Positions 23 to 42,420 of a stretch of DNA of 42,420 nt are shown piece by piece. Positions within the stretch are counted from its first letter, which is position 1, and every line of letters starts with the position of its first letter. The notes below the pieces were generated by a model, which was not told the origin of the DNA, did no database searches, and worked only from the letters and a program-made list of their open reading frames with translations. The translations under genes and the position numbers were made by a program. Origin of the DNA: Candidatus Omnitrophota bacterium (lineage in GTDB: Bacteria > Omnitrophota > Gorgyraeia > JABMRN01); the NCBI GenBank assembly GCA_028702395.1, contig JAQVOV010000002.1, positions 27,213 to 69,632 on the forward strand, in the 5' to 3' direction.

Positions 23-1732
23 CTATTTCATCCCCACTATCTCGCCATTCTTATCAATATCCATTTTAAACCCTGCAGGATTTTCAGGAAGTCCAGGCAT
101 TGTTCTAATATCACCGCAAATAACATATATGAACCCTGCTCCGCTTGAGATATGCATATCGGAAACAGGTAATTTAAAATTACGAGGCCTTCCTTTACGT
201 TTAGGATCATGCGAAAGCGAAAACTGTGTTTTGGCCATACAAATAGGGAAATTATCCATGTTTATTTTCTTTAAGAATTTCATTTTTTCTAATGCGTGTT
301 CAGAAAAAACAACTTCCTTTGCCCCATAAATACTTTTAGCTATTCTTGAGATCTTATCTTTTATTGGAAGGTCCAATGGATAGAGAAATCTGAAAATAGA
401 TTTACTGTCTTTTATGATCTTGATGATGGAACGAGCCACTTCAAGACCACCTTGTGAGCCCTTTGCCCACATTTCACTTACAACACAATCATCTGCTCCT
501 GCGGACATTGCACATCGTTTAACAGCATTTATTTCTTTTTCTGTATCAGTAGCGAATTTATTTATACAAACAACTACAGGTACCCCATAGACCTTTAAAT
601 TCTCTATTTGTTTATCCAAATTTGAAGATCCCCTTTCAATTGCCGATATGTTTTCCCTAAAAAGAGAACTTTCAAGAGGTTTTCCGCCTTTGATCTCAAA
701 ATCACCACTATGCATTTTTAATGCACGAATAGAACATACCAGAACAACAGCATCAGGTTTTAACCCGCTTTGTCTGCACTTTATATTGAAGAATTTTTCC
801 GCACCTATATCCGCCCCAAACCCACCTTCGGTAACAACATATTCAGAGAATTTCAAAGCTATTTTATCCGCAATTATAGAATTACTGCCATGAGCTATAT
901 TTGCAAATGGACCAGTATGGATGATAGCCGGAGTATTCTCAATAGTTTGAACAAGATTTGGTTTTATGGCTTCTTTCAGCAGTACTGTCATGGCACCAGC
1001 AACTTTAAGATCCTCTGTTGTAACTGGTTTTTTGTCTTTTGTATAAGCAACAATTATTCTCCCTATACGTTTTCTTAGTTCGTGTATATTTTCTGAAAGA
1101 GCAAGTATGCTCATAAGTTCACTTGCAGCAGTAATACTGAAATTACTTTTTCTTGGCACTCCATCATTTTTGCTTCCCATCCCTATCTGTATATTTCTCA
1201 AAACTCTATCACTAACATCCAGAACTCTATCCCAAATAATGTTATCTGTATCTATATGATGAGGATTTCCTCTGAATATTGAATTATCTAAATAAGCAGC
1301 ACATAAATTGTGTGCTGCTGCTACTGCGTTCATATCTCCTGTAAAATGAAGATTTATTTCTTCACAAGGTAAAACCTGTGAATATCCACCGCCTGTACCA
1401 ACCCCTTTTGTTCCAAAAATAGGGCCTAAAGATGGTTCTCTAAGACAAGCTATTGATGTTTTTCCCAGTTTATTGAATGCCATGGACAGACCAATGGTAG
1501 TGACTGTTTTGCCTTCTCCTAAAGGAGTTGGTGTTATTGCTGTAACTAATATGTATTTGCCATCTTTTTTTGATTTGCTTTTTTTTAAGATCTCATCTGT
1601 GATCTTGGCTTTATACATACCATAATTTTCAAGGTATTTTCCTGAGATCCCTATTTTTTGAGCTATTTTTTCGATTGGAAGAAGTTTTGTGTTTTGAGCT
1701 ATTTTAAAAGTTTCAGACTTAGCACCAGGCAT
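23..1732 (-). CDS. fhs: formate--tetrahydrofolate ligase
   Basis: 569-aa ORF with the PTPLGEGKT nucleotide-binding motif. It resembles FTHFS enzymes end to end in length and sequence. Confidence 0.95.
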   Translation of the reverse strand: MPGAKSETFKIAQNTKLLPIEKIAQKIGISGKYLENYGMYKAKITDEILKKSKSKKDGKYILVTAITPTPLGEGKTVTTIGLSMAFNKLGKTSIACLREPSLGPIFGTKGVGTGGGYSQVLPCEEINLHFTGDMNAVAAAHNLCAAYLDNSIFRGNPHHIDTDNIIWDRVLDVSDRVLRNIQIGMGSKNDGVPRKSNFSITAASELMSILALSENIHELRKRIGRIIVAYTKDKKPVTTEDLKVAGAMTVLLKEAIKPNLVQTIENTPAIIHTGPFANIAHGSNSIIADKIALKFSEYVVTEGGFGADIGAEKFFNIKCRQSGLKPDAVVLVCSIRALKMHSGDFEIKGGKPLESSLFRENISAIERGSSNLDKQIENLKVYGVPVVVCINKFATDTEKEINAVKRCAMSAGADDCVVSEMWAKGSQGGLEVARSIIKIIKDSKSIFRFLYPLDLPIKDKISRIAKSIYGAKEVVFSEHALEKMKFLKKINMDNFPICMAKTQFSLSHDPKRKGRPRNFKLPVSDMHISSGAGFIYVICGDIRTMPGLPENPAGFKMDIDKNGEIVGMK

Positions 1733-4136: not shown

Positions 4137-5798
4137 CTACATCTTCTTCGGCAACGACACTCCGAGAAGTTTGAGTCCGTTCGCAAGACATATTTTCACA
4201 CAATCAATCAAAAACAACCTTGCTTTTAACAATTCATTGTCATCTGTTATAACCTTATATTTTCCATAAAAGTTATGGAATTTTGATGCAAGTTCGTTTA
4301 AATACGAAATAACAAAAAAAGGTTCCAGTTTTTCGGCACTGGATCTAACAGTTTTAGGAAAAACTCCTATCGTCTTTGCAATAGCTATCTCTTCTTCTTC
4401 TTTCAACAAAGAAAGATCTGCTTTTGACAAATCAATAGCACCTGCCTTTTCATGAATGGACCATATTCTTGCATGTGCATATTGAATATAATAAACAGGA
4501 TTATCTGCGGATTGTTCTTTTGCTTTATCAAGATCAAAATCCAAATGTGTATCAAGATTTCTCATAAGAAAACAAAATTTCGTGACATCCTCACCTACTT
4601 CATCCATAACTTCTTTAAGAGAAATGAATTCTCCTTTTCTCGTAGACATGGAAAGTTCCTGTCCGTTTTTATATATCGTAGCAAGCTGAACTATCAGTAC
4701 TTTAATAGCATCATGATCATGGCCTAAAGCTTGAGCTGCAGCTGTTATCCTTGGAATGTATCCATGATGATCAGGTCCCCATATGTTTATAAGTTTATCA
4801 AACCCTCTTTCATATTTGTTCTTGTGATAAGCTATATCAGGCGCAAAATAAGTGAACTGCCCGTCACTTTTTACAACTACCCTATCTTTTTCATCATTAA
4901 AATCCGTGGATTTAAACCACAAAGCCCCATCCTGCTGATAAATATAGCCCTTTTCTTTAAGCAAAGATAGAACTTTGTCAATATCGGATTTTGTAATGTT
5001 TTTCTGGCTGAACCATGAATCAAAATCCACTTTAAATTGTTTCAGATCCTCTTTTATTATATTCAAAAGAAAATCAGCACCATATTTCCTGAAAAAATCT
5101 CTACTGCTTTGAGGATCCTTTACAAATTTATCGTTATATTCATCTTTTATTCTTAAAGCAATACCTTTAATATACTCTCCCTGATATCCGTCTTCGGGAA
5201 AAACACCATTTTTACCAAAAGCAGCTAAATAATGATAAAGTATAGAATCACCTAAGACATTTATCTGCCTGCCTTCATCATTTATGTAGAATTCCTTTGT
5301 TACATTATTTCCCATGAATTTAAGTATGTTGGCTAGAGCATCTCCAACAGCAGCCTGTCTGCCATGTGCAACAGTCAAAGGCCCGGTTGGATTGGCACTG
5401 ACAAATTCTATCTGTATATTATGGTGGTCTTTGTTTTTTGAACTGCCAAAAGATCCCCCTTCTTTTTCTACTGTCTTTAACACTTCATATGCATATTCTT
5501 TTGATAAAATAAAATTAATGAACCCAGGGTTAACAACATTTACGCTCTCGATAAGACCTGGTATCTTTTTATCCAATAATTCAATAATATCCGTTTTCAG
5601 GGTTTCTGCGATCTGGACAGGATTTTTTTTCAATATTTTTGTCAATTGAAGTGCTATGCTGGAAGAAAGGTCTCCATGGGCAGGATCTCTTGGTGCACCT
5701 ACTATTATATCCGGACAACTTTGATCCCCCATTATTTTCTTAACAGCTTTTTTTATGCCTTGTTCTAATATGATCTCTGATATCTGGGAAAAATCCAT
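4137..5798 (-). CDS. argS: arginine--tRNA ligase
   Basis: 553-aa ORF with the class I motif region SANPTGPLTVAHGR and ArgRS-like N-terminal and anticodon-binding regions. Confidence 0.95.
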   Translation of the reverse strand: MDFSQISEIILEQGIKKAVKKIMGDQSCPDIIVGAPRDPAHGDLSSSIALQLTKILKKNPVQIAETLKTDIIELLDKKIPGLIESVNVVNPGFINFILSKEYAYEVLKTVEKEGGSFGSSKNKDHHNIQIEFVSANPTGPLTVAHGRQAAVGDALANILKFMGNNVTKEFYINDEGRQINVLGDSILYHYLAAFGKNGVFPEDGYQGEYIKGIALRIKDEYNDKFVKDPQSSRDFFRKYGADFLLNIIKEDLKQFKVDFDSWFSQKNITKSDIDKVLSLLKEKGYIYQQDGALWFKSTDFNDEKDRVVVKSDGQFTYFAPDIAYHKNKYERGFDKLINIWGPDHHGYIPRITAAAQALGHDHDAIKVLIVQLATIYKNGQELSMSTRKGEFISLKEVMDEVGEDVTKFCFLMRNLDTHLDFDLDKAKEQSADNPVYYIQYAHARIWSIHEKAGAIDLSKADLSLLKEEEEIAIAKTIGVFPKTVRSSAEKLEPFFVISYLNELASKFHNFYGKYKVITDDNELLKARLFLIDCVKICLANGLKLLGVSLPKKM

Positions 5799-5801
5799 GG
5801 T

Positions 5802-6194
5802 TTATACTCCTGATCCAAAGTTTTTTTGAGGCACATTATTCCATAGTCTTTCAAGATCATAGAACTTTCGTGTTTCCGTATGGAAAATATGTACAATAAC
5901 ATCCGTAGCATCAACAAGCACCCACTTATCATCTCTTATACCTTCCCGATGTCTTACCTTTTCTCCTATCTTTGAAAGTTCTTTGCCGATCGCTTCACTA
6001 ATCGCATTCATTCTAGTATTTGATGGGGCACTTAATATGACAAAATAATCACATATACTGGAGATCTTTGTCATATTTAACATAACTATATCTTCACCCT
6101 TTTTTTCAAGAGCAATATTTGCTATGAACAATGCTTTGTCTTTTGATTTCATTGTTTTTTCTTTTAATTTTATTGTTTTTTCTTTTGATTTCAT
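5802..6194 (-). CDS. rsfS: ribosome silencing factor RsfS with Lys-rich N-terminal repeat extension
   Basis: The C-terminal ~110 aa match the RsfS/iojap pattern (ALEKKGEDIVMLNM...CDYFVILSA). The start is placed at the Met preceded by TAAGGAG. The ORF-track start 6212 and the Met at 6152 are alternatives. Confidence 0.8.
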   Translation of the reverse strand: MKSKEKTIKLKEKTMKSKDKALFIANIALEKKGEDIVMLNMTKISSICDYFVILSAPSNTRMNAISEAIGKELSKIGEKVRHREGIRDDKWVLVDATDVIVHIFHTETRKFYDLERLWNNVPQKNFGSGV

Positions 6195-6212
6195 TTTCTC
6201 CTTAATTATCAT

Positions 6213-6327
6213 ATAGTGACTATTAACTAGAAATTAGTGACTGGAAAAGTCTACATAACGTTATCTTTAAATCAATTTATTCTAATCACTAGTCACTTGT
6301 CACTAATCACTAACCCCTATTAATCCC
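6213..6327. repeat. composite intergenic hairpin element (TAGTGAC-word arms, TATCTTTAAATCAATT core)
   Basis: Arms at 6214-6244 (TAGTGAC TATTAAC TAGAAAT TAGTGAC TGG) and 6282-6313 (CTAATCACTAGTCACTTGTCACTAATCACTAA). Core TTATCTTTAAATCAATTTATT at 6261-6281. Terminal CCCCTATTAATCCC at 6314-6327. Confidence 0.75.
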
Positions 6328-6331
6328 TACT

Positions 6332-6361
6332 AAAAAACATGAGTAGCGGATACACCGCTAC
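6332..6361 (-). terminator. rho-independent terminator candidate after the small basic-protein gene
   Basis: Minus strand reads GTAGCGG-TGTAT-CCGCTAC followed by TCATGTTTTTT. Confidence 0.55.
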
Positions 6362-6461
6362 CCATTAAAAATATAATTGCTGATCCAAATACTTCTAGTT
6401 TTTTGCAGAACACTTTTTTATGTTTGGAAAAACTAAGAATTTTTCCCGAACACTGGCATTT

Positions 6462-6629
6462 TTATTTCAACTCTGCTGCTTTAGCTTTAGAAACAACTCT
6501 CCAGCATTCATGTGTACCTGTTGGAGACTTTGCAACTGCAAAAAAACGACCTTTTTTATCCTCAATCCTGTATTCTGATGTTTTGAATTTTGCCTTTGAT
6601 TTTACATCATAAAATTCCATTGCTTCCAT
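6462..6629 (-). CDS. small basic protein, 55 aa (MEAMEFYDVKSKAKFKTSEYRIEDKKGRFFAVAKSPTGTHECWRVVSKAKAAELK)
   Basis: Hand-translated and below the ORF-track length cutoff. GGAGG lies 7 nt upstream of the ATG, a terminator follows, and a promoter-like TTGCCA-18-TACACT lies about 140 nt upstream. The K-G-R...P-x-G-T pattern recalls DUF5679-type small proteins, but the four Cys positions are replaced. That family match is from memory and tentative. Confidence 0.45.
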   Translation of the reverse strand: MEAMEFYDVKSKAKFKTSEYRIEDKKGRFFAVAKSPTGTHECWRVVSKAKAAELK

Positions 6630-7016
6630 TCGATAACCTCCTTTTTTCGTATTACATGCTTCGTATCTTGAGCTATGAGTTTTTTAAGATCATAGGATCT
6701 CTCAGAGCACGCAGTTGGTAACACGCAACTGATCCTTTAATATTAATATTTTATGTAGTGTATCATAGAATTTCTTTTTTGGCAAGAAAAGCTTATTTTT
6801 TATTTGAAAATGATAAATATTGGTTTTAAGACCCCTTTTTTCCTTTAGTGTTAATTAGTACCAATTGTATAAACCTATATAAATGTATTTCAAAAATCTA
6901 TTAAGTGTTATTTGTCTGCAGATCTATCCTAAGAATGTTGGTAAACCAATAATATTCAGCTTTCCACAAAAGACTCATTACTCACAGACACATAACACAC
7001 AACAAAGATCCTTTTA

Positions 7017-7078
7017 CCCCAATCTTATCTGTGTTCATCTAAAAAACCATTTTAACCCAATTCTTATCTGTGTTCATC
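7017..7078. repeat. two direct copies of about 23 nt (CCAAT(T)CTTATCTGTGTTCATC)
   Basis: Copies at 7017-7039 and 7055-7078, immediately downstream of the ftsA stop. Confidence 0.6.
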
Positions 7079-7105
7079 CTTATACTTCAAATCAAGTCCA
7101 ATACC

Positions 7106-8143
7106 CTAGAAATAGCTTTCCATCATATTGACAAGCCCTTTTATAGCTTTAGATAACCAATTTGAATCAATATTTTCCTTTATTTTTTTAGCCTGATATA
7201 AGGCTACTCCCAGTGAACCTGTATGACAAATGGTATCTGCAACTTCGATAGAACAGCCTTCTGCTGAAGCATGCCCCATTTTACAAGATATGCCCAGTTT
7301 AGTATCCATTTTCTCAATTAAATCTTCTTTTAAAGCTCCTCCGCCTGTACATATAACTTCATCTGTATGAATATTCTCAAATTCCTGTTTAATACTATTC
7401 ATGAACATTTCAATAGCTCCATCATTGGCCAGATCTAAACTTCCGAGATCAACACTAGCTATATGAAAAAGGGTTTTTCCTTTAAAAAAAGCTATTCCTG
7501 TTAAATGACTTCCAATATCAACAATAGCCGTTGTCATATCTTTGTTCTTGCCGAATGAGGAAAGGGCTTTTGTTATTGCAATAGGAGCAAAAACTGTACC
7601 ACTAAGGATGTATCCTGAATGTTCAACACATTTATACAGGTTCTTTATTTTGGCAATATCAGCTATTACAACATATAGTTCCATCCCCAGTTTTGTTGCA
7701 TAAAGGCCTTCCGGGTCAACAACTTTATCACCTTCATCAATATAAAAGCTTTGAATTTCTTTCTGGATTATCTGTTTTTCTTCAGGCATTCTTATCATGC
7801 TTGCTATCCTGACACATTTGTCTATGTCACTTGCACTTATTAATCTTGGTCGTTTACCTAATGCAAGCATTCCCTTTGCCTGCATACCTGATATTCCTAG
7901 ACCTTTGACAGAAACAAAAATATTTTTCAATCTTTTTTGAGTTTTTTCTTCTACTCTTTTTAACACATCTCTTATATCAGTTGACGCAACATCAAAATCA
8001 ACGATATTGCCAGAATCAATGCCTTTTGACGGAATGTTCTCTAAAGCTAAAACTTCCAATTGTCCATGTTTACTGACAGATATCATAGCTACACGTATAG
8101 TACTAGAACCTAAATCCAATCCGGTTATAATTTGATCAGCCAT
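7106..8143 (-). CDS. ftsA: cell division protein FtsA, short form
   Basis: Actin-fold motifs DLGSSTIRV, DIGSHLTG and TGGGALKEDL, plus a C-terminal amphipathic tail NWLSKAIKGLVNMMESYF. It occupies the last position of the dcw cluster. Confidence 0.85.
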   Translation of the reverse strand: MADQIITGLDLGSSTIRVAMISVSKHGQLEVLALENIPSKGIDSGNIVDFDVASTDIRDVLKRVEEKTQKRLKNIFVSVKGLGISGMQAKGMLALGKRPRLISASDIDKCVRIASMIRMPEEKQIIQKEIQSFYIDEGDKVVDPEGLYATKLGMELYVVIADIAKIKNLYKCVEHSGYILSGTVFAPIAITKALSSFGKNKDMTTAIVDIGSHLTGIAFFKGKTLFHIASVDLGSLDLANDGAIEMFMNSIKQEFENIHTDEVICTGGGALKEDLIEKMDTKLGISCKMGHASAEGCSIEVADTICHTGSLGVALYQAKKIKENIDSNWLSKAIKGLVNMMESYF

Positions 8144-8366
8144 TTTATCTCCTTTATAGCATCTGCAAGGTAAAAGTAAAAAGGTAAAAGTAAAAAACCT
8201 GTTTTCATTGTGGAGTCTTTTGTTTTTTTTGTAGGGGCGTATTGCAATACGCCCCTACAACGCTCTATTTGAACGTTCCATTAGCTACACGTAATGCGTA
8301 GTTCAATCCAGGACGTTCCACCCTTTTTACTTTTGCCTTTTTCCTTTTTACTTATCTTCCTATTAA
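8144..8366 (-). repeat. composite intercistronic hairpin element (GGTAAAA/GTAAAAA-word arms)
   Basis: Arms at 8167-8197 and 8324-8360. CATTGTGGAG box at 8198-8219. GC hairpin GTAGGGGCGTATTGCAATACGCCCCTAC at 8231-8258. Boxes GAACGTTCCAT (8271-8281) and AGGACGTTCCAC (8310-8321) flank an inner block at 8282-8305. Confidence 0.8.
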
Positions 8367-9173
8367 CTACTTTCTCGGTCCAAGCACAGGATCTTCAAAC
8401 CTAAGATCAATATATTCAAGTCCTTTAACATCAATATTCTTATCTTGTAAGATAAATTGAAGTTTCTTTATTTTTTCAGAAAAATCTTGTTGCCCCATTC
8501 GTATTTCAATAGGTCCATTCAGTTGAACAATGAGATTTTTGGGATTAGAAACATCTATGCTTTTTATGCCATGTTTTTTTATTTCAGGCACGTTATAAAA
8601 TATCGATAATACACTTTTTGCAAGTTCAACTCTATCTGAAGATATTTTTTCTCCAATAGAAGGTTTTGTCCATATTTTAAAACCTGTTATAAGCGGTAGA
8701 TCTGACATAGTTGCTTGATCATATACAAGAACAGTTGAATCATTATCAATAGCATATTGCCCAAAAGCATTTATTGATGCAAGCGGCACACGTTGATCAA
8801 CCATAAGTTCTATCCTATCAGGTAAAACTCTTTTAACAACAATATTCTTTATTTGAGGATAATTCTTGTTAAGCTGATATTCTAACCACTTAATATTCAC
8901 TTTGAAAATGTTCTCTCCTTTAATATTCTCAGTTTCTTTGATCGTCTTCAAAAAGCTGATATCCCTGCTTTGTCCTGTATTGTTTACAATAACAATACTT
9001 TTGACCCGAAAATACTTTATTCTCATAATATAATTTCTAAGGGCAAATCCCAAAACAAGTAGGATCAATAAAACAAGCAAAAAAGGGAAACATTTCTTGA
9101 ACACTGTTTTGATCACTTCTATTATTTTATCTTTTTTTTCTGAAAACACGTTACGTTTTCTTTTCCTAGCCAT
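8367..9173 (-). CDS. ftsQ: cell division protein FtsQ
   Basis: 268 aa with a basic N-terminus, one TM helix and a POTRA-like region. It sits between ddl and ftsA. Confidence 0.8.
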   Translation of the reverse strand: MARKRKRNVFSEKKDKIIEVIKTVFKKCFPFLLVLLILLVLGFALRNYIMRIKYFRVKSIVIVNNTGQSRDISFLKTIKETENIKGENIFKVNIKWLEYQLNKNYPQIKNIVVKRVLPDRIELMVDQRVPLASINAFGQYAIDNDSTVLVYDQATMSDLPLITGFKIWTKPSIGEKISSDRVELAKSVLSIFYNVPEIKKHGIKSIDVSNPKNLIVQLNGPIEIRMGQQDFSEKIKKLQFILQDKNIDVKGLEYIDLRFEDPVLGPRK

Positions 9174-9309
9174 TGTTACTCCTTTATAGCGATTTTAGCT
9201 GTCAGCTATCAGCGTTCAGCTATCAGCAAAGGATCTTTCTAGAATCATTTTTTAGATCCCCTCTTTTAGGACGTTCCACAAGCTGACAGCTGAAAGCTAA
9301 TGGCTGATG
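9174..9309 (-). repeat. intercistronic hairpin element (AGCTNTC-word arms)
   Basis: Arm TAGCTGTCAGCTATCAGCGTTCAGCTATCAGC (9196-9227) faces arm AAGCTGACAGCTGAAAGCTAATGGCTGATG (9280-9309). Box AGGACGTTCCAC at 9268-9279. Confidence 0.8.
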
Positions 9310-10260
9310 TTAACCGATCTCATCGTCCTGTCCATAGCGCACTTTTTTAAATACCGCAAGCTCAAGTATCTGTTCACATAGTTCGTCAAAAGATATCCCA
9401 AAAACTTTTGCTGCTTTAGGCAACAAAGACCTTTCAGTAAGTCCCGGGATCGTATTAACCTCAAGAACATATATTTTACCTTGATGATCCATCCTCATAT
9501 CAACTCGCGAAAAGTCCTCACAACCCAAGGTATTATGGGTCAATAATGCAATATCACTGATCTCCTGTTTTTTTTCATCTGATAATTCTGCAGGACAAAT
9601 ATATTCTGTTTGTTTATCTATGTATTTTGCATTAAAATCATACACATTGTCCTTAGCAATGATCTCAACAACAGGCAAGACAGATTTCCCTAGGATACCA
9701 ACTGTTAATTCTTTTCCGTCTATGAATTCCTCAAAAATTATCGTATTTCCATACTGAAAAGCCTTATTCATAGCTGTTTTTATATCTTTTTTATCAATTA
9801 CAATACTTAATCCAAAACTAGATCCTTCAGTAGCAGGTTTTATTACAACAGGTAAACCGAATTCATACGAATCAATATTAAAATATTGTTCTTTGTTTAC
9901 GATCATATACGGAGGAACTAGAATATTATTATCACTAAGGATCTTCTTTGTTAATTCCTTATCCATACAAACTTTTGAAGATAAAGGCCCTGATCCTGTA
10001 AAAGCTATACCATATTCAGATAAAAACTGCTGTATTGTACCATTTTCACCTTCTTTACCATGTAAAGCAATAAAAGCAATATCAATATTCTCATTTAGTA
10101 TCTGCTGCGGCATATTCTGTGTTACATCAATAAATACAACATTAAAACCTTTTCTTTGGAGTGCTTTGAATACAGCAGTTCCAGATACAAGGCTTATCTC
10201 TCTTTCGGAAGAAGTTCCTCCTGCAATAACACCAATTTTAAATTCGTGAAGCGTTTTCAT
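9310..10260 (-). CDS. ddl: D-alanine--D-alanine ligase
   Basis: 316-aa ATP-grasp protein with typical Ddl N-terminus (GGTSSEREISLVSG) and C-terminus (EVNTIPGLTERSLLPKAA). Confidence 0.95.
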   Translation of the reverse strand: MKTLHEFKIGVIAGGTSSEREISLVSGTAVFKALQRKGFNVVFIDVTQNMPQQILNENIDIAFIALHGKEGENGTIQQFLSEYGIAFTGSGPLSSKVCMDKELTKKILSDNNILVPPYMIVNKEQYFNIDSYEFGLPVVIKPATEGSSFGLSIVIDKKDIKTAMNKAFQYGNTIIFEEFIDGKELTVGILGKSVLPVVEIIAKDNVYDFNAKYIDKQTEYICPAELSDEKKQEISDIALLTHNTLGCEDFSRVDMRMDHQGKIYVLEVNTIPGLTERSLLPKAAKVFGISFDELCEQILELAVFKKVRYGQDDEIG

Positions 10261-37227: not shown

Positions 37228-37614
37228 CTATTTTAGATCCGCGACAAACCGTCTGACCAAAGATACAACAAAGCAGCTTAAAGTTATAACCCCAAGAAAA
37301 CCTTCAACAACACATAATCCTCTGGAAAAACCAAGCGGCTGAATATCCCCGTATCCAATAGTGGTCAAAGTAATTCCTGAAAAATAGAAAGCTTCCGGCA
37401 AGGTTAAAACCCTTTCTAAAGAATTTATAACGAACATGCTCTTTGACAACCAAAAGATCATAGAAAAAATAAACCACAAAAAGATGCTCAAGATCAGAAA
37501 TCTGGACGGTTTAATAAAACCTCCACAAAGCCACATCATTGCTTTAAACAACCTGTTTTTTTGATGAGCTTTACTTTCAAAAAACACAATATCACTTAAA
37601 GCCTCTCTATCCAT
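37228..37614 (-). CDS. two-TM potassium-channel pore module
   Basis: 128 aa with two TM helices flanking the selectivity filter TLTTIGYGD. Confidence 0.75.
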   Translation of the reverse strand: MDREALSDIVFFESKAHQKNRLFKAMMWLCGGFIKPSRFLILSIFLWFIFSMIFWLSKSMFVINSLERVLTLPEAFYFSGITLTTIGYGDIQPLGFSRGLCVVEGFLGVITLSCFVVSLVRRFVADLK

Positions 37615-37632
37615 TCCAACATTAGTATGTTC

Positions 37633-38343
37633 TCATATAAAAGTTAATGTGTCCTTTATCCTTTCATTCTCGATATGTTTGATATGCTGTGTACTATTCC
37701 TGGAAAAAGCCTCAGTTAAAACAAACAAATTTCTATTCAAACCTTTTCCTTTCTGTGATCTTCCTAACCTGTTCAAGGATTTTTTTATATTTATTTGAGA
37801 ATGATCGAATTTTACTTCTTTAAACCCTCCTGCCTCAACATTTAAAGAATTTATGTTGTTCCAATAGAGAACAAAAGAATCAGCATTCATATATTCCAAT
37901 CTAAGATCCAAAACACTACTTTCCATCATATATACATTCTTGACATCTACTATATGAAATGTCAAACAAGAAAAATTAGAGCGTTTTATTGACACATCAA
38001 TCAATTTATTGCTATTGACGATCTTACAACCTTTTAAAAATATACAACTATCTATATCTATCTCTGTTAACTTTTCTTCCTCGTCATAGATCATGACATC
38101 ACCGATAAAAACGCAATTGTGAAATTTTACAATAGAAGCATGCGTTATCCTTATACTTTGAAGATCAATGATCTTAGTGTCAAGTTCTAAGGTTTTATCA
38201 TTAATACGATCTTCCTCGTTGATTATAAGCTCTTTTTTATTTATTCGAGAGAAACCATTCTTTTCCAGTTCATCCAGTACTTTCTCTACATCTTTTTCCT
38301 TGAACAATTTATTTTCTTTATAGATCCTAAAAATGTCCTTCAT
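37633..38343 (-). CDS. hypothetical protein with degenerate pentapeptide/beta-helix-like repeats
   Basis: 236 aa with a repetitive hydrophobic pattern (F.NC.F.G.V, ID.C.F.KGC.I, SNFSCLTF). It is in the same reading frame as the channel ORF, separated from it by a single TGA. Confidence 0.5.
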   Translation of the reverse strand: MKDIFRIYKENKLFKEKDVEKVLDELEKNGFSRINKKELIINEEDRINDKTLELDTKIIDLQSIRITHASIVKFHNCVFIGDVMIYDEEEKLTEIDIDSCIFLKGCKIVNSNKLIDVSIKRSNFSCLTFHIVDVKNVYMMESSVLDLRLEYMNADSFVLYWNNINSLNVEAGGFKEVKFDHSQINIKKSLNRLGRSQKGKGLNRNLFVLTEAFSRNSTQHIKHIENERIKDTLTFI

Positions 38344-39228: not shown

Positions 39229-39366
39229 GCGAATTTTAAAAATTTTTCCATATAACATTTTATCTTTCAAAGTCGTTAGAATTATTCTGCCTACACCTAT
39301 TTGCAACCCATTTATGTTCAGTATGTTGTAAACATATAGCTTTAAAGCAAAACTTCTGAATTCAGA

Positions 39367-39413
39367 TCTGCCTGCTTGTTAAAGCAGGCAGGGTCATCCC
39401 CGCCTTAAGGCGG
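39367..39413. repeat. two adjacent GC-rich hairpins (CTGCCTGCT/AGCAGGCAG and CCCGCC/GGCGGG)
   Basis: Seen directly in the sequence. The first is related to the CCCTGCCTGC...GCAGGCAGGG palindrome at 23153-23174. No U-tract follows. Confidence 0.7.
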
Positions 39414-39495
39414 GCCCATGCCATAATTACGTTTTTTGGTCTTTAGCAAAAAAAAATTACCTAATTACTGAGCTAGTACATCTGACCCTAAGTTT

Positions 39496-40692
39496 TTACT
39501 TTTTTGCTATTTCAATTAAATAATTCAAAGTTCCTTCAGCTTTAACTTGTAATGCTTGCAATTGCTTCTTATCAAACGAATGTCGCACCTTGTGTGTCCC
39601 ACCTTGGAAAAGATCAATGAACGCTAAACTAGAGGTTACATCTGTAGAAACAAAGTGTTCAAGTTTACCTGTCTTTATATTACGACATATATATTCTATT
39701 CTTGCTTTTCGTGTCGGTTTGTTATTCTGGTAATATTGTGGCTCTGAACTCCACTTTTCCACTTTTTTTGTTGGTGCTAAAGAATGTAATAAATGTGTGA
39801 AAAGCTCTCTTATCGAAACGCAAAAATGTCTAACTCTATCTGGATTATTTGAAGCTAAAGCATTACAAGCCCCTCTCCACATATTAATAAAATCTGAATC
39901 TATCATTTGAAGGTTTTTTTCAAGCTTATTTGTAATATATTCTTCAACAACTTTCTTTTTTTCTTTTTTAAAACTATCATCCAAATCAGTTCTGGTAGAT
40001 ATGTTTTTATATAAATCAACTTCATTAAAATATTCTATTGAGGTTAACTCCGTTAGTGGCATTCCTAACTCAACCATTGTATTAGGGGAAGTTCTCCAAG
40101 TATTACACATATCATTAAAATTGTGTGTCATACTTTCTATACCTGTAAATAAGCTATGTTTGTCTTCATGTTCAAAAGGAAGAAACGTGCCTACGTTACT
40201 GGGATAAATCAAACTAAGATCTTGTTCTGCAAATATACTGTTTTCTGAAATTTTAGTTAAACTTGACTGATAAGACAATTCGGATAACTTTAATGTTACA
40301 TCTTCTCCTAAATTGAGATTTTCAAAACCTGTCAATGAAGCATTCTTATAGGGATCATATATAAAAGGATTGTTTTCGTGATTATACTCAAGAGCTACAG
40401 AACTTATTATATCTTGTGTCATAAGCCCTGCCATATTAAGATTAATATCTCTTCCCATTCTAAGCAACTCAGTACTTTCTTTATACAAATTTAGTTCTGG
40501 AAGAGAGGCTACCATTTTGGTAGTATCTTGAATTCCCCAAGATACTAAATTGTCCACTTTCAAATATAAATTATTATCTTTAAAAAACTCCGAATTGTTT
40601 TCTAAACCAGTGAAAAACGGTTCTGTTCTTATCTTGTAACATTCCATACAATTAATTGCGTTTGAATACCCCTCATATATTTCTTTATCCAT
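39496..40692 (-). CDS. hypothetical protein with C-terminal R-x4-H (HEPN-like) motif
   Basis: The start is set at MDKEIYEGY, preceded by AAAGGAGGGAAG. The ORF-track start 40755 would run through a terminator-like hairpin. The motif RELFTH lies in a helical C-terminal region. The N-terminal ~280 aa are unrecognised. Confidence 0.6.
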   Translation of the reverse strand: MDKEIYEGYSNAINCMECYKIRTEPFFTGLENNSEFFKDNNLYLKVDNLVSWGIQDTTKMVASLPELNLYKESTELLRMGRDINLNMAGLMTQDIISSVALEYNHENNPFIYDPYKNASLTGFENLNLGEDVTLKLSELSYQSSLTKISENSIFAEQDLSLIYPSNVGTFLPFEHEDKHSLFTGIESMTHNFNDMCNTWRTSPNTMVELGMPLTELTSIEYFNEVDLYKNISTRTDLDDSFKKEKKKVVEEYITNKLEKNLQMIDSDFINMWRGACNALASNNPDRVRHFCVSIRELFTHLLHSLAPTKKVEKWSSEPQYYQNNKPTRKARIEYICRNIKTGKLEHFVSTDVTSSLAFIDLFQGGTHKVRHSFDKKQLQALQVKAEGTLNYLIEIAKK

Positions 40693-40707
40693 CTTCCCTC
40701 CTTTATC

Positions 40708-40732
40708 AAAAAAGGGACGCTGAAGGCGCCCC
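40708..40732 (-). terminator. terminator-like hairpin between the TPR gene and the HEPN-like gene
   Basis: Minus strand reads GGGGCG-CCTTCAG-CGTCCC followed by TTTTTT, immediately upstream of the SD. Confidence 0.5.
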
Positions 40733-40757
40733 TTTCCCCGTAATTCTTCCCCCAAAT

Positions 40758-41336
40758 TTATTTCTTTAACCCTTTTAATCTTTCTAAATCTACCTTTTGC
40801 TCCTTAATAATCCTTTGCGGGAAATTATCATACTTGTTTTCCATCACCCAAATAGCTTTTTCCTTGTTTTCTATAGCTCTTTTTATATTTCCCTGTTTTT
40901 CAGCAACAGCTGACATTCCCAAATAACCAGCAGGTGCATCACCAGCTTTATTAATCAATATTTCATTAATACCTTTGGCACTATCCAAATCCCCCATTAA
41001 CACATAGACTTTTTCTAAATCATTTAATCTTTGAAAGTTCATTGCTTTATCACGATCTCTCTTCATTTGAGAAAACAGCAAATCTTCTGCCTCTTTGTAC
41101 ATTTTATACTCAATACAAGCGTTATAAGCAGCTACTTCATATTCAGTTTTTTTCGGGTTAAGACGAAGTGCTTCTTTAAGAAAAACTACTCCTTTTTGAG
41201 GATCACCATTTGAGAGGTAAAAATAACCCTTATCTGCATATTCTCTAGATTTATATACTTGAGAAAATAAAACTCCAGCAACAATTAAAAAGAAAGAAAC
41301 AAAAACTAAAACCAATATTACTATTTTTTTTATCAT
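40758..41336 (-). CDS. membrane-anchored TPR-repeat protein
   Basis: 192 aa with an N-terminal TM helix and at least three TPR-like helix pairs (GDPQKGVVFLKEALRLNP, GDLDSAKGINEILI, GNIKRAIENKEKAI). Confidence 0.7.
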   Translation of the reverse strand: MIKKIVILVLVFVSFFLIVAGVLFSQVYKSREYADKGYFYLSNGDPQKGVVFLKEALRLNPKKTEYEVAAYNACIEYKMYKEAEDLLFSQMKRDRDKAMNFQRLNDLEKVYVLMGDLDSAKGINEILINKAGDAPAGYLGMSAVAEKQGNIKRAIENKEKAIWVMENKYDNFPQRIIKEQKVDLERLKGLKK

Positions 41337-42319
41337 ATTCCTATCCCTGCCTTTCTTAATAAATCTTTTGCCCTTTCCTCATCTTCTACTCTATGCAATT
41401 GCACACCAACCCCATCATCAACTTTGACGCAAACACTCCATCTATACAAATCATCTTCTCCTTGCAATAACTTCCCAAGTCTTTCTGTAGTTATATAATA
41501 TGTTCCTTCTCCATTAATTAAAGGTTGAACAGAATCTAGCCCTGCTTCTAACACACTCCAATAAGCAGAAATTTTGTCGTTTGCATCAGCCTGCTCTATA
41601 TCAAATCTATTACCTAAATCATCTAAAATCTCTTGATTCGGCAAAGAACCAGAACTCCCGCCTCCTAATTTTTTAAAAAACCTAACTCCCATTGAAGCAA
41701 TTTTATCTTGATAACTTACAACAACTAATTCCTGATCTGGTCTCCACACATTAGAACCAGAACCATAAATCTCTCCCATATCACTAGGATCATTGTATAA
41801 CTTTTCCTCATTAGAAGATCTCCCCCCATCATAAAAACTAATATTTTCTAATTGAAGTCTTCTCTCTATTTTTTCAAAAACTTCTGGTTCAGATTGATGA
41901 AATAAATTTATTTTAGTCTTATCTATTGCCCTATCTATTTTAAAAAACAAATTATTCCAACCATCAGAAACAACTTCCCATAATGAAGGATTAGTCTGTG
42001 ATAAAATCTCTGATATTTCTACTATTTTATCATTTTTATAATTTATAACATCATCTGCAAAAGCATCTGGAAACCAAAAACTATTTCCTCCAGAACTAGA
42101 AGAAACTGCAAGAGCATCTAATCCAAGTTCTAATTGCATTTCTGTTAAATTATACTTTGCCATCAAAAAGTCATCTTGCTGAGAACTTAAATCATTAACT
42201 TTAAAAGAAGTAAGTTCAGGAAAACTAATAGCACCTTCAGAAAATTTAACAGTTGCATCTAAATCATAAGAATACAAAAAACCATTGTAAACATACGAAA
42301 CAGGGTCAGGTCTCCACAT
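41333..42319 (-). CDS. hypothetical protein, 328 aa, no recognisable motif
   Basis: Long ORF whose stop overlaps the TPR gene start (ATGA) and whose start overlaps an upstream partial ORF. Confidence 0.65.
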   Translation of the reverse strand: MWRPDPVSYVYNGFLYSYDLDATVKFSEGAISFPELTSFKVNDLSSQQDDFLMAKYNLTEMQLELGLDALAVSSSSGGNSFWFPDAFADDVINYKNDKIVEISEILSQTNPSLWEVVSDGWNNLFFKIDRAIDKTKINLFHQSEPEVFEKIERRLQLENISFYDGGRSSNEEKLYNDPSDMGEIYGSGSNVWRPDQELVVVSYQDKIASMGVRFFKKLGGGSSGSLPNQEILDDLGNRFDIEQADANDKISAYWSVLEAGLDSVQPLINGEGTYYITTERLGKLLQGEDDLYRWSVCVKVDDGVGVQLHRVEDEERAKDLLRKAGIGI

Positions 42320-42419
42320 TCCACACTTTTTCTATTCTACTAATTATTTTATCCAGTTTCTTATCTTTTTTTCTTTTCTTTTCTACACGTTTACATAATA
42401 TACTAATTCCTGTATCACC
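42306..42419 (-). CDS. 3' end of an upstream ORF entering from beyond the window (…KRVEKKRKKDKKLDKIISRIEKVWNVET)
   Basis: Hand-translated open frame from the window edge to the TGA at 42306-42308. It overlaps the next start by 14 nt. Confidence 0.35.
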   Translation of the reverse strand, partial: GDTGISILCKRVEKKRKKDKKLDKIISRIEKVWNVET

Positions 42420-42420
42420 T

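What the first reader, a model, noticed from the sequence alone, without database searches (positions are those of the whole stretch)
39496..42419. Uncharacterised operon: unknown proteins, membrane TPR protein and an R-x4-H (HEPN-like) protein, next to TA, Fic and channel genes
Four co-oriented ORFs are tightly packed.
- A partial ORF from beyond the window overlaps the next start by 14 nt.
- A 328-aa protein has no motif I can recognise.
- A 192-aa TPR protein has an N-terminal TM anchor, and its start overlaps the previous stop (ATGA).
- After a terminator-like hairpin and a strong SD comes a 398-aa protein. Its C-terminal ~120 aa are helical and contain RELFTH, which fits the R-x4-6-H signature of HEPN RNases.

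The neighbourhood is typical of defence or conflict islands. It holds a HigBA-like pair immediately downstream, then the split channel gene, then an autoinhibited Fic, and this is the only part of the window without housekeeping genes. A TPR sensor or scaffold plus a HEPN effector plus unknown partners is a plausible but unproven anti-phage or toxin module. The R-x4-H match is a 6-residue pattern and could be fortuitous.
Basis: inference. Interest (0 to 1): 0.65.

Follow-up and report, generated by a model that had tools for sequence, protein, structure and literature searches.

The report
Three unrelated units, not one operon
The supposed four-gene defence operon is three unrelated things lying side by side: the end of a mobile element, the cut-off tail of a giant surface-protein gene with its helper gene, and a stand-alone predicted nuclease of a known but untested family.

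Summary
They do not form one module.

1. The partial ORF (42306-42420) is the 3' end of a REP-associated Y1 transposase gene. Its terminal repeat (42301-42318) is multi-copy in the source metagenome and contains the ATG of the 328-aa ORF.
2. The 328-aa ORF has only three relatives. In each it is the C-terminal domain of a 624-2384-aa protein; two carry a C39-peptidase-like domain and one also RHS repeats. Homology starts at residue 7, exactly at the element's end, so it is most likely a 3' remnant.
3. The TM-TPR gene is that domain's conserved downstream partner in both loci where it could be checked.
4. After a hairpin comes the 398-aa gene. It is a clear member of Pfam PF18165 (pP_pnuc_1, E 1e-31). 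Relatives occur across many phyla with no conserved neighbour, often beside restriction-modification or other defence genes, and never with the TPR or 328-aa genes.

R295 and H300 are conserved in 57/57 and 55/57 relatives. The HEPN link is recurrent but below threshold, and RELFTH sits in the wrong helix for the canonical motif.

Verdict: ordinary mosaic, plus one uncharacterised ApeA-like candidate defence nuclease.

The parts
42306..42420 (-). 3' end (last 37 codons plus stop) of a REP-associated Y1 (IS200-like) tyrosine transposase gene. The rest lies beyond the window.
   Evidence: 24/37 identical and 34/37 similar to the C-terminus of the 313-aa L039 protein, ending at the same residue. 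That protein has Y1_Tnp (E 9e-15) plus a DnaA-C HTH, and scores 79.6 bits on NCBIfam REP_Tyr_transpos against a cut-off of 80.
42297..42333 (.). REP-like terminal inverted repeat of the element (exact 18-mer CAGGGTCAGGTCTCCACA at 42301-42318). It holds the transposase stop codon and the ATG of the 328-aa ORF.
   Evidence: The same sequence flanks the L039 transposase gene in inverted orientation at both ends. It occurs once in the window. In landfill-metagenome assemblies it is a 37-nt node of depth 43.9 joined to at least 3 different sequences on each side. The transposase-side contig has depth 30.5x and the 328-aa contig 11.1x.
41333..42319 (-). 328-aa ORF: most likely the 3' remnant (C-terminal domain) of a giant C39-peptidase-like (in one relative also RHS-repeat) protein gene. 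Its first 6 codons are supplied by the element's end.
   Evidence: Only 3 relatives among 1.8 billion representatives. All match through their C-terminal ~310 aa, in proteins of 1079, 624 and 2384 aa. Peptidase_C39 is present in P0062 and P0064, and RHS_repeat in P0064 only. The BLASTP alignment to P0062 starts at query residue 7, matching P0062 residue 749. There are no Pfam, PADLOC or NCBIfam hits.
40758..41336 (-). 192-aa membrane-anchored TPR protein, the conserved downstream partner of the 328-aa-type domain. Its start overlaps the previous stop (ATGA).
   Evidence: TPR_19 E 3.9e-6. Homologous TM-TPR genes of 208 and 202 aa follow the giant genes within 1-4 nt in L036 and L038, at 30-31% identity and E 3e-25 and 4e-26.
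40708..40738 (-). Intrinsic-terminator-like hairpin (13-bp stem, 5-nt loop, U-run) ending the remnant/TPR unit. Only ~3 nt separate its foot from the SD of the next gene.
   Evidence: RNA fold dG -19.2 kcal/mol; sequence read directly.
39496..40692 (-). 398-aa stand-alone two-domain protein: an N-terminal all-alpha region (residues 1-255, no known family) plus a C-terminal PF18165 domain. SD AAAGGAGGG at 40696-40704.
   Evidence: Pfam pP_pnuc_1 at 109.6 bits against a cut-off of 26.3. PADLOC Aga_Nuclease E 4.7e-13. 59 relatives, all carrying PF18165. AF2 pLDDT 87.5, pTM 0.88.
39520..39909 (-). PF18165 (pP_pnuc_1) predicted nuclease domain, residues 262-391. Conserved core: R288 H289 S293 R295 E296 H300 W314 P326 T327 R328 R331 R337 G365 T366 H367.
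   Evidence: Domain-only AF2 model pLDDT 90.8.
39793..39810 (-). RELFTH (R295-H300), in the middle of helix 286-305.
   Evidence: R in 57/57 and H in 55/57 relatives. Helix assignment.
39592..39600 (-). GTH (G365-H367), just after helix 342-361. This is the position that corresponds to the canonical HEPN catalytic His.
   Evidence: H367 in 56/57 relatives. Secondary structure. Canonical position as described in PMC3710099.
39368..39414 (-). Two G+C-rich hairpins downstream of the 398-aa gene, probably its transcript end.
   Evidence: Fold of 39340-39500: dG -52.8, z -4.24, 0 of 200 shuffles as stable. Unique in the window. No Rfam family.

Best explanation
The region is a mosaic of three independent units.

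**(A) Mobile element.** 42297-42420 is the right end of a roughly 1-kb element: a REP-associated Y1 tyrosine transposase gene flanked by inverted REP-like repeats.

**(B) Gene remnant and partner.** The element abuts, and most likely interrupted, a very large gene. That gene encodes a secreted or membrane protein of a family with a C39-peptidase-like domain, and RHS repeats in one relative. What remains is its last ~320 codons, now opened by an ATG inside the element's repeat. It is followed by its conserved partner, a membrane-anchored TPR protein, and this unit ends at a terminator hairpin.

**(C) Stand-alone nuclease gene.** The 398-aa gene is a self-contained member of Pfam PF18165. Inferred mechanism, not shown: it works like single-protein HEPN defence enzymes such as ApeA or DARNA. 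A variable all-helical N-terminal region would sense an infection cue or hold the enzyme inactive. The C-terminal four-helix domain, probably as a dimer, would then cleave RNA (tRNA or mRNA) and arrest growth. The active site would be built from the invariant polar cluster: R288, H289, R295, E296 and H300 on helix 2, R328 and R331 on the inserted hairpin, and H367 after helix 3. The catalytic His is more likely H367 than H300.

Sub-claim confidence: the mosaic, about 0.8; the remnant reading of the 328-aa ORF, about 0.65; RNase or defence function of the 398-aa protein, about 0.4.
For: **(A)**
- motif, transposase homology and inverted copies.
- a multi-copy node; 30.5x against 11.1x depth.

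**(B)**
- no relative in a word-seeded search of 5.8 billion proteins.
- three relatives, all matching through their C-termini.
- C39 in two relatives, RHS in one.
- homology begins at residue 7, which is the element boundary. One search shows an in-frame stop 5 codons upstream of the ATG.
- the TM-TPR partner is conserved immediately downstream.

**(C)**
- family membership.
- invariant polar residues.
- 27 loci with an ORF across the match, from many phyla, share no neighbour at blastp 1e-5.
- of 72 neighbours, no Pfam family occurs more than 3 times. Restriction-modification methylases, ResIII/DEAD helicases and RhuM recur.
- the gene lies beside Hachiman, type II R-M, RES, ABC-3C, patatin and reverse-transcriptase genes.
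- confident all-alpha models.
- HEPN proteins dominate the weak fold hits, and the HEPN_Apea profile matches the same domain.
- ApeA and DARNA architectures and mechanisms: bioRxiv 10.64898/2026.01.26.701840 and 10.64898/2026.02.22.705581.
Against: **(B)**
- The sequence beyond 42420 could not be read, so the 5' part of the giant gene was not seen.
- A natural short form exists (P0063, 624 aa), so a stand-alone C-terminal module is conceivable.

**(C)**
- No fold hit reaches E < 0.4.
- No HEPN profile reaches its gathering score; the best is 20.5 bits against 24.4.
- A profile search of PDB sequences found no HEPN protein.
- RELFTH is not at the canonical HEPN position, and there is no Arg 4-6 residues before H367.
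- No member of PF18165 has been tested, as far as the held literature shows.
- No promoter fits between the hairpin and the SD. The gene may therefore be read by terminator read-through from the TPR gene, so co-transcription is not excluded.
- Some neighbours of relatives are housekeeping genes.
Confidence: 0.6

Rival explanations
1. The four ORFs are one anti-phage or toxin operon in which the TPR protein is a sensor or scaffold, the 398-aa protein the HEPN effector, and the other two unknown partners.
For: The ORFs are co-oriented and tightly packed, with 14-nt and 4-nt overlaps. There is no room for a promoter between the hairpin and the SD of the 398-aa gene, so read-through co-transcription is possible.
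Against: The first ORF is a transposase. The 328/TPR pair occurs without PF18165 in L036 and L038. PF18165 genes occur without the pair in 27 genome loci, 3 other contexts and 4 plasmids. A terminator-type hairpin separates the units.
Confidence: 0.05
2. The 328-aa ORF plus the TM-TPR gene is an intact, expressed two-gene module: an orphan C-terminal toxin-like domain with its immunity or helper protein. On this reading it is not a dead remnant, and the transposon end merely supplies or replaces its start.
For: The frame is open for the full 328 codons, and translational coupling to the TPR gene (ATGA) is preserved. The domain sits at the C-terminus of a protein with RHS repeats (P0064) and is followed by a small conserved gene, as in polymorphic toxin loci. 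A shorter natural form, P0063, exists. An in-frame ATG or TTG start is available.
Against: Homology to the giant proteins runs right up to the element boundary, as expected for a cut gene. There is no recognisable SD before either candidate start. The three relatives share the region upstream of the domain as well, so the domain is not shown to be a swappable cassette.
Confidence: 0.25
3. The PF18165 domain of the 398-aa protein is not an enzyme. It is a nucleic-acid-binding or protein-binding regulatory module, and the 'nuclease' label is an untested prediction.
For: There is no significant match to any solved nuclease. The canonical HEPN motif position lacks the Arg. Pfam's name is only a prediction.
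Against: Fifteen invariant or near-invariant residues, mostly Arg, His and Glu, are concentrated in ~80 residues of a protein with no other candidate catalytic domain. The one published helical pAgo-binding 'switch' domain that could be tested, the EcbAgaN N-terminal domain, is unrelated (hhalign probability 0.04%).
Confidence: 0.2
4. The 398-aa protein works with a prokaryotic Argonaute encoded elsewhere in the genome, as the family name implies. An example would be a guide-generating RNase like Agap-HEPN.
For: The family is named for its association with pPIWI. All 57 relatives hit the PADLOC model Aga_Nuclease. One of 72 neighbours of relatives is a pPIWI-RE protein. Agap-HEPN is a pAgo-linked RNase with an R-x4-H site, R262 and H267 (PMC11162769).
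Against: There is no PIWI gene next to the window gene, nor in 26 of the 27 genome loci or any of the 4 plasmid loci. Agap genes overlap their pAgo gene by 4-8 nt, which is not the case here.
Confidence: 0.05

Closest known systems
Pfam PF18165 pP_pnuc_1 ('predicted pPIWI-associating nuclease'); PADLOC model Aga_Nuclease
   Same: The C-terminal domain matches the whole profile (positions 2-132 of 133, E 1e-31), and all 57 relatives do too. The core motifs are the same.
   Different: There is no PIWI/Argonaute neighbour here or in nearly all relatives. The domain is fused to a ~255-aa N-terminal helical region that has no family. The PADLOC model is matched only at positions 12-82 of 267.
ApeA (single-gene HEPN anti-phage system; Pfam HEPN_Apea PF18739)
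   Same: Both are single, predominantly alpha-helical proteins with an N-terminal region of no known homology and a C-terminal nuclease domain. The HEPN_Apea profile aligns colinearly with the PF18165 domain in 5 of 10 close relatives. The proposed logic is the same: a sensor pocket plus an RNase (bioRxiv 10.64898/2026.01.26.701840).
   Different: Scores are below the gathering threshold (14-20.5 bits against 24.4), and the window protein itself gives no hit. ApeA is larger, with its HEPN region at 335-583, and has the catalytic R/H in helix H3. Here the conserved R-x4-H is in helix 2.
DARNA / PD-T7-3 (HEPN tRNA anticodon nuclease activated by SSB-bound ssDNA)
   Same: It is an all-alpha single protein of ~450 aa with one HEPN-type domain plus one helical sensor domain, acting by abortive infection (bioRxiv 10.64898/2026.02.22.705581).
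   Different: The domain order is reversed, with HEPN at the N-terminus in DARNA. The PADLOC scan gave no hit other than Aga_Nuclease.
Agap-HEPN of Alteromonas macleodii (pAgo-associated RNase, R262/H267)
   Same: It is a pAgo-associated predicted-then-proven nuclease with an R-x4-H site and an extra uncharacterised domain (PMC11162769).
   Different: Its gene overlaps a pAgo gene, and its role is guide-RNA production. Its sequence could not be obtained, so homology to PF18165 is untested.
REP-associated tyrosine transposases (RAYT; NCBIfam NF047646) with flanking REP sequences
   Same: The partial ORF matches the C-terminus of a Y1_Tnp protein that scores 79.6 bits on the RAYT model. Inverted repeats flank that gene, and the repeat is dispersed in many contexts in the metagenome.
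   Different: The protein has an extra DnaA-C-like HTH tail and is ~313 aa long. The score is 0.4 bit below NCBI's cut-off. Only 37 codons lie in the window.
Rhs/YD-repeat polymorphic toxins with a downstream immunity gene
   Same: The 328-aa-type domain is the extreme C-terminus of a protein with RHS repeats (P0064) and is followed at once by a small conserved gene.
   Different: No PxxxxDPxGL-type demarcation was seen. The three relatives also share the region upstream of the domain, so polymorphism is not shown. The partner is a membrane-anchored TPR protein, and no toxin family matches.

Membership tests
Pfam PF18165 (pP_pnuc_1) | Profile HMM score above the gathering threshold over the whole domain | tested here: met
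   109.6 bits against 26.3; residues 262-391 match profile positions 2-132 of 133.
Pfam PF18165 (pP_pnuc_1) | Family-wide conserved polar core | tested here: met
   R288, S293, R295, W314, P326, T327 and R328 are invariant. H289, E296, H300, R331, R337 and H367 are at least 90% conserved in 57 sequences.
Pfam PF18165 (pP_pnuc_1) | Genomic association with a prokaryotic PIWI/Argonaute gene | tested here: not met
   No PIWI family among the window neighbours. Only 1 of 72 neighbours in 27 loci is a pPIWI-RE protein. None in 4 plasmid loci.
HEPN superfamily | [quoted passage not shown] | tested here: inconclusive
   The AF2 domain model has four long helices, with a short helix, beta-hairpin and helix inserted between the 2nd and 3rd. 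Foldseek top hits include 1wty, 2hsb, 2q00, 3o10 and HepT entries at TM 0.4-0.56, but E is 0.4 or more.
HEPN superfamily | Rx4-6H at the end of helix 3 / start of the loop to helix 4 (PMC3710099) | tested here: not met
   RELFTH lies mid-helix in the 2nd long helix (286-305). The canonical position carries F-Q-x-G-T-H with no Arg 4-6 residues upstream. This mapping rests on secondary structure only; no coordinates were available.
HEPN superfamily | Conserved acidic residue in helix 2 (Ex3[KR]) | tested here: inconclusive
   E296 (56/57) lies in the 2nd helix and is followed 4 residues later by H300 rather than K or R.
HEPN superfamily | Significant profile match to a HEPN family | tested here: inconclusive
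   HEPN_Apea matches 5 of 10 close relatives over the same domain at E 0.076 to 6.9e-4, all below the 24.4-bit cut-off. There was no hit for the window protein, and no HEPN protein in the PDB profile search.
HEPN superfamily | Metal-independent RNA cleavage by a dimeric composite site | not testable with these tools
   Needs biochemistry.
EcbAgaN-type long-B pAgo nuclease | Sequence similarity to the EcbAgaN N-terminal switch domain or PD-(D/E)XK domain | tested here: not met
   hhalign probability 0.04%; BLASTP E 0.55. The EcbAgaN sequence came from the supplement of PMC10620215.
REP-associated Y1 transposase element | Y1 (HUH) transposase domain | not testable with these tools
   The catalytic part lies beyond the window. 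The closest relative of the 37 visible residues (65% identity) has Y1_Tnp at E 9e-15 and scores 79.6 bits on REP_Tyr_transpos against a cut-off of 80.
REP-associated Y1 transposase element | Inverted REP-like repeats flanking the gene; repeat dispersed in the genome | tested here: met
   L039 has the 15-mer at 389-403 (+) and 1409-1423 (-). The window has the right-end copy. The repeat is a high-depth branching node in 4 metagenome assemblies, and one contig has two copies 20 nt apart.
Rhs-type polymorphic toxin C-terminal domain plus immunity gene | Domain at the extreme C-terminus of a large RHS/YD protein | tested here: met
   The domain is C-terminal in all three relatives. RHS_repeat was found in P0064 only (E 1.8e-9) and Peptidase_C39 in P0062 and P0064; P0063 has no Pfam family.
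Rhs-type polymorphic toxin C-terminal domain plus immunity gene | Small cognate gene immediately downstream | tested here: met
   TM-TPR homologues follow within 1-4 nt in L036 and L038. An immunity function is not testable here.
Rhs-type polymorphic toxin C-terminal domain plus immunity gene | Variable C-terminal domains on a conserved body, after a demarcating motif | tested here: inconclusive
   Only three relatives exist. They share the upstream region too, and no DPxGL-type motif was seen.

The most novel reading that the evidence does not exclude
Stand-alone PF18165 proteins, with a variable helical N-terminal region plus the pP_pnuc_1 domain, are a new Argonaute-independent single-gene anti-phage system. 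It would work like ApeA or DARNA but with a rearranged HEPN active site. In that site, helix 2 (R295, E296, H300) and the post-helix-3 His (H367) would together replace the canonical Rx4-6H.
Probability: 0.3. Interest if true: 0.6.

Novelty: new member of a known kind. Interest (0 to 1): 0.3.

Why it matters
It mainly corrects an over-reading. Tight packing and co-orientation here arise from a transposon insertion and from neighbouring but unrelated genes, not from an operon.

Two modest leads remain.
- PF18165 is a rare, widely scattered, experimentally untested family. These data show that it is mostly independent of Argonaute and sits among defence genes, so it is a reasonable candidate for a single-gene defence nuclease.
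- The 328-aa-type domain and its membrane TPR partner form a very rare conserved pair at the end of giant C39-peptidase-like proteins (one of them with RHS repeats). The function of the pair is unknown.

Tried and rejected
**Looking beyond the window**
- An exact-sequence look-up of the 328-aa protein found nothing.
- The only contig returned for the 398-aa protein stops at the repeat.
Padded to 40 residues, it found no candidate.

**Searches that found nothing useful**
- A genome-collection scan for the 328-aa protein found no relative.
The domain-only alignment was used instead.
- Rfam found nothing in the window.
- The consensus terminator scan found none, although a hairpin plus U-run is present.
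- Full-length fold search against the PDB gave only noise, with TM below 0.25.
- Fold search against viral structures gave nothing informative.
- PDB sequence searches with the protein and with the domain profile gave no nuclease or HEPN protein.
- tblastn against phages gave no match.
- No RNA runs hold the region.

**Hypotheses tested and dropped**
- hhalign against a DUF4145 (HEPN) protein from L042 gave no signal.
- PF18165 as the EcbAgaN N-terminal 'switch' domain: rejected.
- A CRISPR repeat at 42297-42333, suggested by the branching short contigs. Rejected because there is one copy in the window with long unique contigs on both sides, and the same sequence forms the inverted ends of a transposase gene.
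- A frameshift at the A5 run (42326-42330) splitting one gene. Rejected because the upstream frame is a transposase.

**Not obtainable**
- Literature searches for the family name or accession found nothing.
- The Agap-HEPN sequence could not be obtained.

Full report
**1. Observation**

All the genes lie on the minus strand.
- The partial ORF stops at 42308-42306 and overlaps the ATG at 42319 by 14 nt.
- The 328-aa ORF (41333-42319) overlaps the 192-aa ORF (40758-41336) by ATGA.
- The 192-aa protein has a hydrophobic N-terminus and TPR hits.
- A 13-bp hairpin with a U-run lies at 40708-40738 (dG -19.2). The consensus terminator scanner missed it.
- AAAGGAGGG and the ATG at 40692 follow directly.
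- The 398-aa ORF ends at 39496, and RELFTH is residues 295-300.

The description is therefore accurate. The R-x4-6-H pattern on its own means nothing, since shuffles of the protein give one match on average.

**2. The partial ORF is a transposase end**

Contigs from four landfill-metagenome runs were laid on the region. They show that 42297-42333 is a short, high-depth node (43.9x). It is joined to at least three different sequences on each side. The sequence upstream of it has depth 30.5x, and the contig carrying the 328-aa ORF has 11.1x.

A 26-mer from the node occurs once in the metagenome collection, in L039. There it is the end of a 313-aa ORF whose C-terminus matches the window's 37 residues (24/37 identical, ending at the same residue). 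That protein has:
- Y1_Tnp (E 9e-15);
- a DnaA-C-like HTH;
- a score of 79.6 bits on NCBI's REP-associated tyrosine transposase model, against a cut-off of 80.

The 15-mer GGGTCAGGTCTCCAC flanks its gene in inverted orientation. The window holds the right-hand copy at 42301-42318.

So the window ends inside a small multi-copy mobile element. The ATG of the '328-aa ORF' lies inside that element's terminal repeat, and there is an in-frame stop five codons upstream of it.

**3. The 328-aa ORF and the TPR gene**

The 328-aa ORF has no Pfam, PADLOC or NCBIfam family. It has no relative in the word-seeded search of 5.8 billion proteins or in the species-representative genomes.

An exhaustive HMMER search of 1.8 billion representatives found three relatives:

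| Protein | Length (aa) | E-value |
|---|---|---|
| P0062 | 1079 | 2e-29 |
| P0063 | 624 | 1e-28 |
| P0064 | 2384 | 3e-5 |

Each matches through its C-terminal ~190-310 residues. P0062 and P0064 carry a Peptidase_C39 domain, and P0064 also RHS repeats.

BLASTP aligns the window ORF to P0062 from query residue 7, matching P0062 residue 749, to the end. Residue 7 is the first codon outside the transposon repeat. Homology that runs up to an insertion boundary is what a cut gene looks like.

In both loci where the downstream DNA is available, the giant gene is followed within 1-4 nt by a ~200-aa TM-TPR protein homologous to the window's (30-31% identity, E 3e-25 and 4e-26). Neither locus has a PF18165 gene.

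I read this unit as the 3' remnant of a giant secreted or membrane protein gene plus its partner. The arrangement resembles an Rhs-type C-terminal domain with an immunity or helper gene, but polymorphism and toxicity are not shown.

**4. The 398-aa protein**

Family and structure:
- Residues 262-391 match PF18165 (pP_pnuc_1) at E 1e-31, and the PADLOC Aga_Nuclease model at E 5e-13.
- There are 59 relatives, all carrying PF18165, at no more than 45% identity over the aligned stretch (37% for the best-scoring ones). Many also cover the N-terminal region.
- The alignment shows an invariant or near-invariant polar core: R288, H289, S293, R295, E296, H300, W314, P326, T327, R328, R331, R337, G365, T366, H367.
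- AlphaFold models are confident and all-helical: full length pLDDT 87.5, domain alone 90.8.

Genomic context:
- A scan of 185,579 species genomes gave 28 loci from Bacteroidota, Chloroflexota, Cyanobacteria, Planctomycetota, Verrucomicrobiota, Acidobacteriota and others.
- In the 27 loci with an ORF across the match, no neighbour family is shared at blastp 1e-5.
- Among 72 neighbours, no Pfam family occurs more than three times. The recurrent ones are restriction-modification methylases, ResIII/DEAD helicases and RhuM. One neighbour is a pPIWI-RE protein.
- Other contexts include Hachiman.
- On plasmids the contexts are a type II R-M system, RES, ABC-3C, patatin and reverse-transcriptase genes.
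- There is no phage copy.

The gene is therefore self-contained, rare, horizontally scattered and often found in defence neighbourhoods. It is essentially independent of Argonaute despite its name.

**5. Is it a HEPN domain?**

For:
- The domain-only fold search returns mostly HEPN structures at the top: 1wty, HepT 8xdj/7bxo/6m6w, 2hsb, 2q00 and sacsin 3o10, at TM 0.4-0.56 and probability up to 0.85.
- The HEPN_Apea profile aligns colinearly with the PF18165 domain in 5 of 10 close relatives. The best is E 6.9e-4, and P0007 residues 292-417 match profile positions 6-133.
- The helix order fits the HEPN description in PMC3710099, with four long helices and an insert between the second and third.

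Against:
- Every fold E-value is 0.4 or more.
- Every profile score is below threshold.
- PDB sequence searches found no HEPN protein.
- RELFTH lies in the middle of the second helix, whereas the canonical motif ends helix 3.

At the canonical position the family has F-Q-x-G-T-H, with H367 conserved in 56/57 sequences. My inference, from secondary structure only, is this: if the domain is a HEPN, then H367 is the canonical His and E296 the canonical helix-2 acid, with R295 and H300 lining the same site.

The published EcbAgaN N-terminal domain is not related. The Agap-HEPN sequence could not be obtained, so its relation to PF18165 is open.

**6. Mechanism proposed (inferred)**

The 398-aa protein would work like ApeA and DARNA. 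Both are single, largely helical proteins that couple a sensor region to a HEPN RNase and cleave tRNA anticodon loops on infection.
- The N-terminal ~255 residues would sense a cue or autoinhibit the enzyme.
- The PF18165 domain would cleave RNA.

This is unproven. A non-catalytic role is the main rival.

**7. Transcription**

The hairpin foot is only ~3 nt from the SD, so no promoter fits between them. No convincing promoter is seen upstream either. Read-through from the TPR gene may therefore be how the 398-aa gene is transcribed. This is a physical linkage, not evidence of shared function. No RNA data exist for the region.

**8. Verdict**

The finding is an accurate description with a mostly wrong synthesis. 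It is a mosaic of a transposon end, a gene remnant with its partner, and a stand-alone member of a known, untested predicted-nuclease family.

Noticed in passing
window 42297-42336; runs X1-X5: The REP-like repeat is a branching node in all landfill-metagenome assemblies examined. One contig (X3, 84 nt) carries two direct copies 20 nt apart, which suggests dispersed REP or REPIN-like copies beyond the transposase-flanking pair.
   Followed up: partly
window 42301-42319; L039 1398-1424: The element's right end contains ATG and GTG codons that open into the downstream gene in both the window (frame of the 328-aa ORF) and L039 (a different frame, into a glycosyltransferase-like ORF). ORF finders therefore extend downstream genes into the repeat. 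Whether this gives real translational starts is unknown.
   Followed up: no
window 39368-39414: Two strong G+C-rich hairpins lie in the 328-nt spacer between the 398-aa gene and the HigB-like gene (fold z -4.24). They are unique in the window and match no Rfam family. Together with the upstream hairpin, the nuclease gene is bracketed by G+C-rich stem-loops in a 33% G+C genome.
   Followed up: partly
L043 (Leptospira noguchii plasmid NZ_CP091952.1) 991-6450; L040 (Dinoroseobacter shibae pDSHI01) 5542-10018: In two plasmids the PF18165 gene lies next to reverse-transcriptase genes. One has a co-oriented 1167-aa RT plus a 3'-5' exonuclease plus the PF18165 protein. The other has an adjacent, divergent RT plus DNA polymerase pair. 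This may be a linked system or just a defence-island neighbour.
   Followed up: no
L038 7928-8866: A second, more distant member of the same Y1_Tnp plus DnaA-C transposase family (34% identity to the L039 protein) sits directly after the TM-TPR gene of the giant-protein locus.
   Followed up: partly
P0062 residues ~40-180; P0064 ~1370-1510: The C39-peptidase-like domain of the giant proteins appears, by eye, to have Ser or Gln where the catalytic Cys motif is expected (HFGQSAF). It is followed by a long Gly-rich hydrophobic region. It may be an inactive C39-like domain plus membrane segments.
   Followed up: no
window 37228-38343: The 128-aa ORF has an Ion_trans_2 pore domain (E 3.6e-14). The co-oriented 236-aa ORF just upstream has no family.
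   Followed up: no
   Followed up: yes
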